Assembly (NCBI RefSeq): GCF_045037415.1
Contig: NZ_CP173438.1
Direction: 5' to 3' (one strand)
Source of the DNA: Escherichia coli
Lineage (GTDB): Bacteria > Pseudomonadota > Gammaproteobacteria > Enterobacterales > Enterobacteriaceae
Length of the DNA: 64,000 nt
Shown here: one piece after another, positions 1 to 6,830 of the stretch
Numbering within the stretch: the stretch's first letter is position 1
How the letters are laid out: every line of letters starts with the position of its first letter
Position numbers and translations under genes: made by a program
Notes under the pieces: generated by a model
What the model saw: only the letters and a program-made list of their open reading frames with translations
Databases searched by the model: none
Told to the model about the DNA's origin: nothing

Positions 1-806
1 TGGTGTTATCGCCCCCGGTGGCGTCATGCTGCTCTGTCATCATCTCTGCTGTGGCGGTGCGGTAGTTGTAGTCCCGAGTGGTGACGCTTTTTTCCACCAC
101 GCTGTACGCGGTATTCAGCCCCCATACCGCTTCCGTTTCACCATCAAACAGCCCTGAAGGATGGCGAAGCGGCAGTGTCAGCCCGCGCTCGTAGCCGCTC
201 TGGTCGTCATAAAACTCGACAACTTCGATTTTCAGCCGGGCGTCGGTGGCAAAGCGGAACCAGATACCCACTTCCGACAGCAGGCGTGAGACAAACGTCA
301 GGTCGTCCTCACCGTACTGCATCACCTGTTCGCGGGACGGGTATGCGCTTTTGAGGTTAAACACGAAGTCCTGACCGCGCATCTGGTGCCGCTCGCGCAG
401 GATTTTTTCGACGATTTGCGGCACCGTCAGATTCTGGTAGATGGCGTTCTGGCGGCTGCGGGTAAGCAGCGCCATACGGGGTTCAAGGCGCACTTCGTAA
501 CGGGCTTCGTCCTGTGACGAGGAGAGGTGTTTAAAGCTGGTAATGACGCCGTGCAGGGTGCGCAGGGCAGTCTGCACCGGCATTCCCTGTACCGGTGGTG
601 CCGTCAGGCTGAATGCGCCGTCCTGCATCAGCACCGACTCCGGCGCGATGGCTTTATCGGTACTGGTAAACTGAATGTCGTAGCGGAACGGGGTACTCAG
701 TTGTTCGCGGCCTTCGAAGGTCAGCACATCCACCGGACTTTGCAGGCCGCGAATTTTGAGCTTGTGGTGTGAGTGGTCGAAATTCAGAACAGGAACATCC
801 ATTTTC
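1..806 (-). CDS. vgrG: VgrG spike protein paralog, N-terminal ~268 codons only (gene runs off the window start)
   Basis: Positions 1-806 align with 6023-6830 (the 5' end of the full vgrG): identical over ~520 bp, then diverged. Minus-strand ATG at 804-806 gives N-terminus MDVPVLNFDHSHHKLKIRGL, against MNVQFFDHAHHKLKIRGL in the full copy. Confidence 0.85.
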
Positions 807-1084
807 TTTGTACTCCTTCATTTATCTAACAAAGAATAACGAGCCGTTATTTCTTGTTCGGATACATTCTGGGATAATGAATTATTACATTAGAGTTATA
901 ATTTAAAATATGACAATTCTTCTGTACTGTCGTATAGTTTGATGAAACTTCGTGAAAAATATATACGCTCTCCTCCTAAATATGCTGGTCAGTGTTGTTC
1001 CTGACGACCTATCATAAAAGAATGAAGAAATAAAAAAGCTTTTTGTGATTTTTCCGCATTTATGGAAATAATTTATAAAGTTAC

Positions 1085-1200
1085 CTGAGATAAAATGCCA
1101 AACTTATCCTGCAGCAATACCATTGGCATTAAAAAATAGCCTCTTGAAATTGTTCACCAACGTCTTCAAGTCTTCTTCAACCAATAATAAAACTCTGGCA
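1085..1200 (-). pseudogene. Decayed fragment of an effector paralog (homologous to the start of the GH19-like domain of the 787-aa effector)
   Basis: About 75% nucleotide similarity between 1085-1200 and 3030-3135 by eye; minus-frame translation is interrupted by stops; no intact ORF longer than ~60 codons in 807-1471. Confidence 0.45.
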
Positions 1201-4482: not shown

Positions 4483-4493
4483 TTCTTATATCC

Positions 4494-6830
4494 TTAAGAA
4501 AAGAAAAATTTTACGGGTGGCTCATCTACTTTCTCTGCCAACATTTGTAACTCAACAGGCTCATGTGCTTTTCCCATACGCCCGTAATGCACCGCTTTGA
4601 CGTTATAATCCCCCGGCGTTCCCGGCTCAATGCCGCTACCCTCAATCCGGATATAACTTCCACCACCATTAATCGTTATTTTTTTCTTCGCTGAAATCCT
4701 GATCTCGTCCTCAGTACTGACGATCTCTATCGACTTCTTCGCCAGTAACTCCATCAGATCGTGCTGCGCCTGTACCGATACTGCGCCTTTATTGGCAATC
4801 AGTTTGATACCCGCCTTGCGCACAAACACGCTCAGCGCCCGCCCTACGCCGATAAACATATTCTTCACCACGCCGATATCGGCGTTGTTTCCCGCATTTA
4901 TCTGGAGGTTTTTCACTGCGGCCAGTTGCAGGTGCTCGCCGCTGGCGACCGCCACACCTTTCGGCGCGTGCATCAAAATCACCGAGGCGGTCAGGTCATT
5001 TATCCGGCTGGTTATCAGCGCCACCTGCGCGGCCATATCCGCCGGATCGGCGTTCGCCGTGGCCGCATCGTCAGACAGTTTCTGGATTTTATCGCTCAGG
5101 CTGTTCAGTTCGCTGATAATGTCGGCCATTTCGCGTACCTGACCCTGCGCCTTATCCTGCGCGTCGGCGCTGATAAAGATGCCTTTCTTTGCCCGTACTG
5201 CACCCCACAGATCGGTACGCAGTTCAAAACCTTCCCCGCGCTGCTGTTTTCCGGCATCCACCAGATGGCCGAGGTTTAGCTGGCTCTTGCCGCCGTACTC
5301 GGTACTGACCTTGATATGCTCTTTGCCGCGCTCATCGTCGAGGCGGATTTTGTTGTTCGCCGGGGTGCGCAGCACGTTACGCTTGTAGTTCTGAATGGTC
5401 ACATGGTCGGTGTGTGCCGAGTCGTGTTTTACCCCGGCGATATAAGGTCGGTCCGGGTTGCCTTCCTCAAAGGCGATGCTGACTTCCGTTCCCGCCAGCA
5501 GCGGCAGATGCAGGCCATACGTGTCACCTGCATACGGGCGCGACTGGCGCACCCACAGGCTTTCATAACCCGGTTTCCACGTATCGCGGTCAAAGTCGAG
5601 GTTGACCCGGTAGCGCCCGTCCTTGTCGATATGGGCATAGATATCGTTTTTCACCGTGCTGGTGACCCGCGCCGGGAGTGTGCCGGCCATTACCGGGCGG
5701 GGGATAAGCGCCGGGCGGTAGCCGTAGCGCTCTGAGTACGGGATGGCGGTAAACGTCAGCTCATAGCTGCGGTCACGCGCCGCGCTGGCCGTCACGCCGG
5801 TAATCAGTACGCCCTTGCGGAACACTGCTGGCGCGTCGTCGCCCTGAACCCTGATTTCCAGCCCCGGCATCAGCAGTGAACTGGTGCTCTGGCCTTTGAG
5901 AATGGCCTGTTCATTCAGGTAGCGTTCGTGGCGGATACGGGCATAAAACGCGCCGCTTTCCGCTGCCTCTTTATCGCCTTTTTGCAGGAAGTTGTCGGCA
6001 TAGTGGTAGGCTTCGCCGTAGGTGGTGTTATCGCCCCCGGTGGCGTCATGCTGCTCTGTCATCATCTCTGCTGTGGCGGTGCGGTAGTTGTAGTCCCGAG
6101 TGGTGACGCTTTTTTCCACCACGCTGTACGCGGTATTCAGCCCCCATACCGCTTCCGTTTCACCATCAAACAGCCCTGAAGGATGGCGAAGCGGCAGTGT
6201 CAGCCCGCGCTCGTAGCCGCTCTGGTCGTCATAAAACTCGACAACTTCGATTTTCAGCCGGGCGTCGGTGGCAAAGCGGAACCAGATACCCACTTCCGAC
6301 AGCAGGCGTGAGACAAACGTCAGGTCGTCCTCACCGTACTGCATCACCTGTTCGCGGGACGGGTATGCGCTTTTGAGGTTAAACACGAAGTCCTGACCGC
6401 GCATCTGGTGCCGCTCGCGCAGGATTTTTTCGACGATTTGCGGCACCGTCAGATTCTGGTAGATGGCGTTCTGGCGGCTGCGGGTAAGCAGCGCCATACG
6501 GGGTTCAAGGCGCACTTCGTAACGGGCTTCGTCCTGTGACGAGGAGAGGTGTTTAAAGCCGGTAATGACGCCGTGCAGGGTGCGCAGGGGGACCTGCACC
6601 GGCATCCCCTGTACCGGCGGGGCGCTCAGGCTGAATGCGCCGTCCTGCATCAGTACCGACTCCGGCTCGATGGCTTTATCGGTACTGGTAAACTCAATGT
6701 CGTAGCGGAAGGGTGAGCTGAGCTGTTCGTGGCCTGTAAAAGTCAGCACGTCCACCGGGCTTTTCAGGCCGCGAATTTTGAGCTTGTGGTGTGCGTGGTC
6801 GAAGAACTGTACGTTCATAAGAGCCTCCAT
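4494..6830 (-). CDS. vgrG: VgrG (TssI) spike protein, 778 aa
   Basis: Full-length ORF with typical VgrG N-terminal sequence and size; start overlaps clpV stop by 1 nt; followed by effector/immunity pair. Confidence 0.9.
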   Translation of the reverse strand: MEALMNVQFFDHAHHKLKIRGLKSPVDVLTFTGHEQLSSPFRYDIEFTSTDKAIEPESVLMQDGAFSLSAPPVQGMPVQVPLRTLHGVITGFKHLSSSQDEARYEVRLEPRMALLTRSRQNAIYQNLTVPQIVEKILRERHQMRGQDFVFNLKSAYPSREQVMQYGEDDLTFVSRLLSEVGIWFRFATDARLKIEVVEFYDDQSGYERGLTLPLRHPSGLFDGETEAVWGLNTAYSVVEKSVTTRDYNYRTATAEMMTEQHDATGGDNTTYGEAYHYADNFLQKGDKEAAESGAFYARIRHERYLNEQAILKGQSTSSLLMPGLEIRVQGDDAPAVFRKGVLITGVTASAARDRSYELTFTAIPYSERYGYRPALIPRPVMAGTLPARVTSTVKNDIYAHIDKDGRYRVNLDFDRDTWKPGYESLWVRQSRPYAGDTYGLHLPLLAGTEVSIAFEEGNPDRPYIAGVKHDSAHTDHVTIQNYKRNVLRTPANNKIRLDDERGKEHIKVSTEYGGKSQLNLGHLVDAGKQQRGEGFELRTDLWGAVRAKKGIFISADAQDKAQGQVREMADIISELNSLSDKIQKLSDDAATANADPADMAAQVALITSRINDLTASVILMHAPKGVAVASGEHLQLAAVKNLQINAGNNADIGVVKNMFIGVGRALSVFVRKAGIKLIANKGAVSVQAQHDLMELLAKKSIEIVSTEDEIRISAKKKITINGGGSYIRIEGSGIEPGTPGDYNVKAVHYGRMGKAHEPVELQMLAEKVDEPPVKFFFS

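What the first reader, a model, noticed from the sequence alone, without database searches (positions are those of the whole stretch)
1..6830. Two vgrG paralogs share a 5' region that is identical for ~520 bp then abruptly diverged
Seen: window positions 1-806 (5' part of a second vgrG on the minus strand) align with 6023-6830 (5' part of the full vgrG). Positions 1-~520 versus 6023-~6542 are identical at every position I compared; from ~520 to 806 the copies differ at many sites, giving different N-termini (MDVPVLNFDHS… versus MNVQFFDHA…). Inference: this mosaic pattern is the signature of recent gene conversion or recombination between vgrG copies. The ~800-bp direct repeat flanking the effector/immunity module could mediate its deletion or exchange.
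Basis: partly seen in the sequence, partly recalled or inferred. Interest (0 to 1): 0.5.

Follow-up and report, generated by a model that had tools for sequence, protein, structure and literature searches.

The report
Tandem vgrG genes recombining in E. coli
Neighbouring copies of the spike gene (vgrG) in the type VI secretion locus of an E. coli ST131-like strain keep overwriting each other and occasionally recombine to delete the toxin module between them. This is real and well supported, but it is an ordinary kind of repeat-driven genome change in a locus that has already been described.

Summary
Window 1-537 equals 6023-6559 exactly. Identity then falls to about 88% up to position 780, and the extreme 5' ends differ.

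The window is the E. coli ST131-type T6SS-1 locus. It is already described as carrying three tandem vgrG genes, here called A, B and C. The window edge cuts vgrG-B. In a genome carrying the same alleles, the A/B identical run is 1,150 nt, inside about 2.26 kb of homology.

The gene-conversion reading is supported:
- In near-identical sister loci, 96 of 101 differences over 25.9 kb lie inside the vgrG genes.
- In those loci vgrG-A is identical to vgrG-C over 1,117 nt, not to B. In strain E03, B carries a 710-nt tract identical to C.
- The window's vgrG-A differs from the common ST131 allele at only three sites, and all three carry the B state.

The predicted deletion also exists. At least 44 complete genomes have tssH, then an A/B chimeric vgrG, then the vgrG-B module, and lack the M23 module. 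Five chimeras were examined. Each is a clean single A-to-B switch at a different position.

This is a new, well-documented instance of a known process. Interest is low to moderate.

The parts
1..802 (-). 5' 802 nt of vgrG-B, the second vgrG. It is cut by the window edge. In complete genomes it is 2,379 nt and is followed by DUF4123, DUF3304 and Tle1 genes.
   Evidence: Translation (MDVPVLNFDHS...). Annotation of identical sequence in NZ_OY019088 and NZ_CP035720.
1..537 (.). Visible part of the perfect A/B identity tract, copy in vgrG-B. It equals 6023-6559.
   Evidence: no mismatch before 538; the full run is 1,150 nt in a genome (L008) that carries the same A and B alleles.
6023..6559 (.). 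Visible part of the perfect A/B identity tract, copy in vgrG-A.
6367..6453 (-). Three sites (6367, 6451, 6453; vgrG-A gene nt 452, 368, 366) where the window differs from the common ST131 vgrG-A allele and carries the vgrG-B state. This is a short, recent extension of the conversion tract. It causes Q123L and E151A.
   Evidence: The exact allele protein is found on 43 contigs, including contigs over 1 Mb.
538..802 (-). Paralog-specific 5' end of vgrG-B. It is about 88% identical to vgrG-A, with a 6-nt indel near the start.
803..1265 (.). AT-rich intergenic region upstream of vgrG-B. It is lost in the deletion derivatives.
   Evidence: Composition, annotation. No convincing minus-strand promoter in a simple scan.
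1472..2122 (-). Gene downstream of the M23 effector, a putative periplasmic immunity protein. It is 285 aa in most genomes (equivalent to window 1266-2122). Here it is cut to 216 aa by a 1-nt deletion in a homopolymer (T8 at 1532-1539 instead of T9).
   Evidence: The N-terminus MKKSFFLFLYFISLSAYPG looks like a signal peptide (read by eye; inference).
2119..4482 (-). 787-aa cargo effector of vgrG-A, named 'M23 family metallopeptidase' by PGAP.
   Evidence: Annotation. Only a weak Pfam Peptidase_M23 hit (E=0.0035, residues 57-156). No NCBIfam hit.
4494..6818 (-). vgrG-A, the full-length vgrG next to tssH (774 aa from the PGAP start; the ORF extends to an ATG at 6830).
   Evidence: TIGR01646 E=1e-136.
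6830..9466 (-). tssH (clpV) ATPase. It anchors vgrG-A to the T6SS-1 structural cluster.

Best explanation
The window is the E. coli ST131-type T6SS-1 locus. It holds three tandem, same-strand vgrG genes, each followed by its own effector module:
- vgrG-A: M23 effector plus a putative immunity gene
- vgrG-B: DUF4123, DUF3304 and Tle1
- vgrG-C: SLT transglycosylase

The roughly 2.26-kb conserved core of these genes is a substrate for homologous recombination within the locus.

Non-reciprocal exchange (ectopic gene conversion) copies stretches of one paralog's core into another. That produces the perfect A/B identity tract, which is 1,150 nt in this allele and of which 537 nt are visible in the window. 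The tract is still growing at its 5' edge.

Reciprocal unequal crossing-over, or single-strand annealing, between A and B removes the 6,022-bp unit: the 3' part of A, the M23 effector, the immunity gene, the intergenic region and the 5' part of B. What remains is a chimeric vgrG with A's N-terminus and B's effector-specific C-terminus.

The sequence patterns and the natural recombinant products are shown here. Dependence on RecA-type homologous recombination, and the within-chromosome or sister-chromatid origin of the donor, are inferred.
For: Identity tract: window 1-537 equals 6023-6559. The full run is 1,150 nt in L008, which carries exactly the window's A allele and the ST131 B allele. Simulated longest runs averaged about 130 and never exceeded 351.

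Not constraint: in the same tract, A versus C differs at 42 synonymous and 9 nonsynonymous codons.

Partner switching: AVS0283 differs from ST131 at 101 positions over 25.9 kb, and 96 of these are inside the three vgrG genes. In AVS0283 and Z135-3, A equals C over 1,117 nt and differs from B at 54 sites in the tract. In E03, B equals C over 710 nt.

Polymorphic tract edge: the window's A differs from the common ST131 A at only three sites, and U15A's at four. Every one carries the B state. The window allele is on 43 contigs and the U15A allele on 11. L008 has the window's A allele and also shares a tssH SNP with U15A.

Deletion products: R14 has tssH, then a chimeric vgrG, then DUF4123, with every neighbouring gene product carrying the same protein accession as in the three-vgrG ST131 reference. 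The locus is one repeat unit shorter. In all, 44 complete genomes match this context at 99% identity or more.

Five chimeras are each a single clean A-to-B switch with no private differences. The switches lie at A gene nt 25-55, 229-259, 368-452, 452-1410 and 2175-2229. Chimeras occur in both tssM::ISEc12 and tssM-intact backgrounds. So do intact three-vgrG arrays.
Against: - No experiment was run, so direction, rate and enzymology are inferred.
- 33 differences between ST131-B and AVS0283-B match no resident paralog. Exchange with vgrG DNA from other strains therefore also contributes, and it could in principle account for some tracts.
- Other lineages natively have two vgrG genes, and their first vgrG has an A-type start and a B-type end (FDAARGOS_144). 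Without a phylogeny, some 'deletion' genomes could in principle retain an ancestral two-gene state.
- The count of 863 contigs carrying the chimeric protein may be inflated by repeat collapse in short-read assemblies.
- The window-specific three-site change lies within 100 nt of the identical tract. That is a place where short-read polishing can create false conversions.
Confidence: 0.85

Rival explanations
1. The identical tract reflects strong purifying selection on the VgrG gp27/gp5 core, not recombination.
For: The tract encodes the conserved VgrG core (TIGR01646 covers residues 22-508).
Against: The same tract differs at 57 nucleotide sites between A and C in the same genome, affecting 51 codons (42 synonymous, 9 nonsynonymous). 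A and B differ at 54 sites in sister strains whose flanks are otherwise identical.
Confidence: 0.01
2. A and B are a recent tandem duplication, or a recent module insertion that duplicated the core. Under this reading the identity is residual and was not created by conversion.
For: Lineages with two vgrG genes have a first vgrG with an A-type start and a B-type end. This suggests the M23 module was once inserted into a single vgrG. The M23 module is at least 99% identical in all 445 genomes that carry it.
Against: This does not explain why A is identical to C rather than B in AVS0283 and Z135-3, or why B carries a C tract in E03. It also does not explain why the tract edge differs between near-clonal strains, with every change matching the paralog. 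It may describe the origin of the array, but not its present mosaic.
Confidence: 0.08
3. The mosaics come from homologous recombination with vgrG DNA imported from other E. coli strains, with both breakpoints inside vgrG, rather than from exchange within the locus.
For: ST131-B and AVS0283-B differ at 33 tract sites that match no resident paralog. FDAARGOS_144 vgrG1 is a mosaic of both haplotypes.
Against: Wherever a tract's source can be named, it is perfectly identical to a paralog 6-12 kb away in the same genome (957-1,180 nt A=B, 1,117 nt A=C, 710 nt B=C). The modules between the genes stay identical, with 0-1 differences. The chimeric deletion genes have no private differences.
Confidence: 0.05
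4. The window-specific three-site extension, or the repeat itself, is an assembly or polishing artefact.
For: The three sites lie next to a long identical repeat. The window also has a homopolymer indel of a kind typical of sequencing error. Many draft contigs break inside vgrG-B.
Against: The repeat is present in 441 complete genomes. The exact window allele is on 43 contigs from different projects, including contigs over 1 Mb. One contig (L008) spans A, B and part of C. The related U15A allele recurs in four complete genomes.
Confidence: 0.03

Closest known systems
The ST131 T6SS-1 locus as described by Cummins et al. 2023 (Microb Genom, PMC10711316)
   Same: It is the same locus. It has three different vgrG genes, each followed by putative effectors (M23 peptidase, DUF4123/DUF2235, lytic transglycosylase). 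tssM is interrupted by ISEc12 in clade C. The related genomes fetched here show exactly this layout.
   Different: In the passages read, that paper does not describe recombination among the three vgrG copies. It states that the region is too conserved to detect recombinant sequences. The paralog mosaics, the polymorphic tract edge and the chimeric deletion derivatives are documented here.
Variable presence of the three ST131 vgrG variants (mSystems 2025, PMC12282107)
   Same: It reports large variability in which of the three vgrG variants are detected across ST131 genomes.
   Different: No mechanism appears in the passages found. The term search found no occurrence of 'recombination' or 'gene conversion' in the text. 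Unequal crossover between A and B, shown here, gives a concrete cause for part of that variability. Short-read collapse of the repeat may account for some of the rest.
Effector-module replacement through the conserved vgrG region in Vibrio cholerae (Kirchberger et al. 2017, PMC5361080)
   Same: A conserved 5' vgrG region serves as the homology for recombination, while the variable 3' end, effector and immunity genes are exchanged. The clusters are mosaic.
   Different: That case involves exchange between strains by horizontal transfer, and it adds or replaces modules. Here the main signal is exchange among tandem paralogs of one locus, with outright deletion of a module.
Concerted evolution and unequal crossing-over in bacterial repeated genes such as tuf, rrn and rhs (own knowledge, not checked here)
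   Same: Long perfect identity tracts between paralogs, deletion between direct repeats, and chimeric junction genes.
   Different: Here only the core is homogenised. The N-terminal roughly 80 codons and the effector-binding C-termini stay paralog-specific, so cargo specificity is kept.
Nearly identical VgrG paralogs in Agrobacterium tumefaciens 1D1609 (Santos et al. 2020, PMC6971182)
   Same: Several VgrG paralogs about 99% identical, each next to a different effector. Only 4 of 48 surveyed genomes had such near-identical paralogs.
   Different: Those authors attribute copy-number increase within families mainly to duplication, and the term search found no mention of recombination or conversion. 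Those loci are dispersed, not a tandem array.

Membership tests
T6SS VgrG/TssI spike protein | gp27-like and gp5-like core domains (vgr_GE / Phage_GPD, Phage_base_V, T6SS_Vgr, DUF2345) | tested here: met
   TIGR01646 E=1e-136 (456.7 bits, cutoff 121.8) and TIGR03361 E=6e-74 for vgrG-A. Precomputed Pfam families for A, B and C are listed.
T6SS VgrG/TssI spike protein | Encoded within or next to a T6SS structural gene cluster | tested here: met
   tssH, hcp, tagL/OmpA, tssL, tssK, tssC and tssB lie directly upstream on the same strand.
Ectopic gene conversion between paralogs | An identity tract significantly longer than expected from the overall divergence of the pair | tested here: met
   Observed runs are 957-1,180 nt. 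The simulated mean was about 130 and the maximum 351 in 20,000 trials.
Ectopic gene conversion between paralogs | The tract is not explained by constraint: the same region diverges at silent sites in other paralogs or orthologs | tested here: met
   A versus C: 42 synonymous and 9 nonsynonymous codon differences. A(ST131) versus A(AVS0283): 38 and 9.
Ectopic gene conversion between paralogs | Close relatives with the same locus lack the tract or pair different paralogs, while flanking DNA stays identical | tested here: met
   96 of 101 differences lie in vgrG genes. A=C in AVS0283 and Z135-3. B=C in E03.
Ectopic gene conversion between paralogs | Clustered substitutions that all match the resident paralog | tested here: met
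   Window: 3 of 3 sites. U15A: 4 of 4 sites. All carry the vgrG-B state.
Ectopic gene conversion between paralogs | The donor is the resident copy (not imported DNA) and the process depends on homologous recombination | not testable with these tools
   This needs experiments (recA/recBCD/recF mutants, marked copies) or a dense phylogeny.
Unequal crossover / direct-repeat deletion | A derivative lacking exactly one repeat unit, with a chimeric junction gene and unchanged flanks | tested here: met
   In R14 the distance from DUF4123 to tssH is 6,023 bp shorter than in NZ_OY019088, where the unit carries T9 (the window's unit, with T8, is 6,022 bp). The flanks tested are exact matches.
Unequal crossover / direct-repeat deletion | Recurrence: independent junctions | tested here: met
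   Five switch positions, each with no private differences. Chimeras occur with both interrupted and intact tssM.
M23 peptidoglycan-hydrolase T6SS effector with a periplasmic immunity protein | A recognisable Peptidase_M23 catalytic domain | tested here: inconclusive
   Pfam PF01551 gave only E=0.0035 (18 bits, residues 57-156). NCBIfam gave no hit. The name comes from PGAP annotation.
M23 peptidoglycan-hydrolase T6SS effector with a periplasmic immunity protein | A downstream immunity gene that neutralises the effector | not testable with these tools
   Only position and a signal-peptide-like N-terminus support this. No family hit.

The most novel reading that the evidence does not exclude
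Homogenisation of the VgrG core, with the N-terminal roughly 80 codons and the cargo-binding C-termini spared, might be favoured by selection rather than being a neutral by-product. It could keep the three paralogs able to co-assemble into mixed trimers that load several effectors on one spike. Under this reading the tandem array would act as a fast recombinational switch that adds or drops effector modules. The five distinct A/B deletion junctions in one pandemic lineage hint at a rate high enough to matter within clones.
Probability: 0.12. Interest if true: 0.5.

Novelty: new member of a known kind. Interest (0 to 1): 0.3.

Why it matters
It gives a concrete mechanism for the reported variability of vgrG content in ST131. 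It also shows that almost all sequence variation in this otherwise frozen T6SS locus comes from exchange between paralogs.

There are two practical consequences:
- SNP-based phylogenies and recombination scans should mask these genes.
- Short-read calls of vgrG or effector presence in ST131 need care.

Biologically, loss of the M23 effector/immunity module by a single crossover changes a strain's weapon and immunity repertoire. In clade C, where tssM is already disrupted, it is also one route of locus decay.

None of this changes current understanding of T6SS or of recombination.

Tried and rejected
- Constraint as the cause of identity. Rejected on synonymous divergence of vgrG-C and of orthologs.
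- Assembly artefact. Rejected for the repeat, which is in 441 complete genomes. Judged unlikely for the window allele, which is on 43 contigs, one spanning the A-B array and part of C.
- Chi sites as a local hotspot. There are none inside the vgrG-A or vgrG-B parts of the window; the nearest is at 8707 in tssH.
- A promoter for vgrG-B in the AT-rich spacer. A simple scan found nothing on the coding strand above shuffle expectation.
- The second direct-repeat family from the repeat finder (1066-1206 versus 2996-3136, 75% identity) looks like a chance match in AT-rich DNA and was not pursued.
- Finding the window's own genome among complete E. coli genomes. No exact match: the best hits differ by 2-3 SNPs plus the homopolymer. 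Nord8 shares the homopolymer state but not the A allele.
- The reciprocal duplication product (two M23 modules). Three records show two places for the module, but they could not be listed or inspected with the tool output.
- Which of A=B (ST131) or A=C (AVS0283) is ancestral. Comparison with FDAARGOS_144 did not resolve this, because that lineage's copies are themselves mosaic.
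Full report
**Observation**

An ungapped comparison shows window 1-537 identical to 6023-6559. The first mismatch is at 538/6560. Identity is then about 88% up to about 780, and beyond that the copies are unalignable without a gap.

Both copies are on the minus strand:
- 4494-6818 (ORF to 6830) is a full vgrG of 774-778 aa, called vgrG-A here.
- 1-802 is the 5' part of a second vgrG, vgrG-B, which runs off the window. Its N-terminus is MDVPVLNFDHS, against MNVQFFDHA for vgrG-A.

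**What the locus is**

The first 9.5 kb match 441 complete E. coli genomes over at least 80% of their length, 362 of them at 99% identity or more. The best matches are ST131 and ST131-like strains.

Annotated records show the T6SS-1 cluster next to the metV tRNA-Met genes and mltA. Reading along the coding (minus) strand, the order is:
- tssB, tssC, tssK, tssL, tagL, hcp, tssH
- vgrG-A, an 'M23 family metallopeptidase' and a 285-aa hypothetical protein
- vgrG-B, DUF4123, DUF3304 and Tle1
- vgrG-C, an SLT transglycosylase and two hypothetical proteins
- tssM, which is interrupted by ISEc12 in clade C

This locus, with its three vgrG genes and effector modules, was described by Cummins et al. 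2023 (PMC10711316). A 2025 survey noted large variability in the three vgrG variants across ST131 (PMC12282107). A term search of that paper found no mention of recombination or gene conversion. Cummins et al. stated that the region is too conserved to detect recombinants.

**Full extent of the repeat**

I aligned the three paralogs from complete genomes.
- A and B are homologous over about 2,262 columns.
- In the common ST131 allele they differ at 40 positions in the first 240 columns and at 4 between columns 240 and 460.
- They are identical from column 459 to 1415 (957 nt).
- They differ at 44 positions from 1416 to 2262, about 95% identity.
- The C-termini are unrelated.

The window's vgrG-A is a rarer allele. 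It differs from the common ST131 allele at only three sites (window 6367, 6451, 6453; gene nt 452, 368, 366). All three carry the vgrG-B state, which extends the identical run to 1,150 nt.

Strains U12A-U15A carry a fourth converted site (gene nt 259), giving a run of 1,180 nt.

One contig (L008, GCA_026413065.1) carries exactly the window's A allele and the ST131 B allele together. This confirms the 1,150-nt run within a single genome. The window allele's exact protein is on 43 contigs, including contigs over 1 Mb. The U15A allele is on 11.

**Is it conversion rather than constraint or recent duplication?**

1. Chance. Given 84-88 differences, simulated longest identical runs averaged about 130 nt and never exceeded 351 in 20,000 trials.

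2. Constraint. In the same tract, A differs from C at 57 nucleotide sites, affecting 51 codons (42 synonymous, 9 nonsynonymous). The region is free to vary.

3. Sister loci.
   - AVS0283 differs from ST131 at 101 positions over 25.9 kb. Of these, 96 lie inside the three vgrG genes, while the M23 and Tle1 modules have 0-1 differences.
   - In AVS0283 and Z135-3, A is identical to C over 1,117 nt (columns 236-1352) and differs from B at 54 sites in the tract.
   - In E03, whose locus is otherwise identical, B carries a tract identical to C over 710 nt (columns 115-824).
   - M22546 has an intact tssM and the same A and B alleles as clade C, so the A=B tract predates the ISEc12 insertion.

The same gene core is thus perfectly identical to different neighbours in near-identical backgrounds, and the tract edges differ among near-clonal strains. 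This is the signature of repeated non-reciprocal exchange among the three paralogs.

One part is not explained by resident copies. ST131-B and AVS0283-B differ at 33 tract sites that match no paralog in either genome. Exchange with vgrG DNA from other strains must therefore also occur.

**The predicted deletion exists**

Strain R14 has ISEc12 in tssM, and every neighbouring gene product carries the same protein accession as in the three-vgrG ST131 reference. It has tssH followed by a 2,373-nt vgrG and then DUF4123, DUF3304 and Tle1. The M23 module is absent and the locus is one repeat unit shorter.

The R14 gene is A at every informative site up to gene nt 452 and B at every site from 1410. 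Its tested flanks match the three-vgrG locus exactly.

Counts for this arrangement:
- 41 complete genomes match this junction context at full score, with no mismatch.
- 44 complete genomes match at 99% identity or more.
- The exact chimeric protein is on 863 contigs in the large collection. This is an upper bound, because short-read assemblies can collapse the repeat.

Five chimeras were compared. Each is a single clean A-to-B switch with no private differences, and each switches at a different place:

| Strain | Switch (vgrG-A gene nt) |
|---|---|
| AVS0947 | 25-55 |
| AR_0081 | 229-259 |
| CH4794 | 368-452 |
| R14 | 452-1410 |
| 30345_1#220 | 2175-2229 |

Chimeras occur both with tssM::ISEc12 (R14, 30224_1#201, AVS0947) and with intact tssM (CH4794). 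Intact three-gene arrays also occur in both backgrounds. Cummins et al. concluded that the ISEc12 insertion was a single event. The rearrangement must therefore have happened several times.

One caveat applies. Other lineages such as FDAARGOS_144 natively have two vgrG genes, and the first has an A-type start and a B-type end. The three-gene array probably arose by insertion of the M23 module into a single vgrG. A phylogeny is needed to polarise each case formally.

**Mechanism**

The best-supported explanation is homologous recombination among tandem direct repeats spaced 6,022 bp (A-B) and about 12 kb (A-C) apart.
- Gene conversion homogenises the cores. The tracts extend outward from existing identity into the diverged 5' part.
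- Unequal crossover or single-strand annealing deletes the intervening module.
- The extreme 5' end and the cargo-specific 3' ends stay distinct, presumably because homology ends there. Selection for cargo specificity may contribute.

The patterns and products are shown. The enzymology and the resident-copy origin of each tract are inferred. No Chi site lies within the vgrG parts of the window.

**Other content of the interval**

The 787-aa effector has only a weak Pfam M23 match (E=0.0035) and no NCBIfam match.

The downstream gene has a signal-peptide-like N-terminus, which fits a periplasmic immunity protein. In the window it is truncated to 216 aa by a T8-for-T9 homopolymer change. That change is shared with GCA_030477745.1 and strain Nord8.

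**Novelty and verdict**

The locus is known. The general idea that conserved vgrG sequence mediates exchange of effector modules is established, for example in V. cholerae (PMC5361080).

In the library searched, I did not find a description of paralog-to-paralog conversion or of recurrent A/B chimeric deletions in this E. coli locus.

This is a clear new instance of a known kind of process. It is useful for interpreting ST131 T6SS variation and for masking in phylogenetics, but it would not surprise a specialist.

Noticed in passing
window 1532-1539 (inside ORF 1472-2122, minus strand): The homopolymer is T8 here and T9 in most related genomes. This truncates the 285-aa putative immunity protein of the M23 effector to 216 aa. 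The same state is found in GCA_030477745.1 (L013) and in complete genome Nord8, where the product is annotated WP_000747984.1. It could be real gene decay or a recurrent sequencing error.
   Followed up: partly
L001 955-3257 and L002 1955-4257 (related genomes, beyond the left edge of the window): tssM (ImcF-related) is split by ISEc12 in the ST131 clade C-type genomes fetched, as published. Whether the window's own strain carries this insertion cannot be seen, because the window starts inside vgrG-B.
   Followed up: partly
window 16621-16917; L005 27567-27753: There are three tandem tRNA-Met genes beside the T6SS cluster in the window and in most relatives, but only two in AVS0283. This is another small tandem-repeat copy-number change at the edge of the same island.
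   Followed up: no
L016 7924-10302 (strain E03): vgrG-B carries a tract identical to vgrG-C over 710 nt, while the rest of the locus is identical to ST131. This is an independent conversion event with a different donor-recipient pair.
   Followed up: yes
L005 15440-17764 and L004 13995-16319 (AVS0283, Z135-3): vgrG-A is identical to vgrG-C, about 12 kb away, over 1,117 nt rather than to vgrG-B. That allele's exact protein is on 248 contigs.
   Followed up: yes
window 8707-52543: There are 11 Chi sites (GCTGGTGG) against about 2 expected. All three inside the T6SS island are on the minus strand, and all eight beyond 18.7 kb are on the plus strand. Chi over-representation is normal for E. coli. 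The strand switch at the island was not examined.
   Followed up: no
H177, NZ_CP124410.1 (strain AVS0543): The match to the M23 effector/immunity segment is split into two pieces, with an IS1 family transposase annotated under it. This looks like another route of decay of the same module.
   Followed up: no
L009 (GCA_002163295.1) about 15465-20078: In this carrier of the window allele, the region between the M23 module and vgrG-B is about 4 kb longer than in the other loci, and the called vgrG-B is only 267 aa. The locus also contains runs of N, so this may be a scaffold gap or an insertion. It was not inspected.
   Followed up: no
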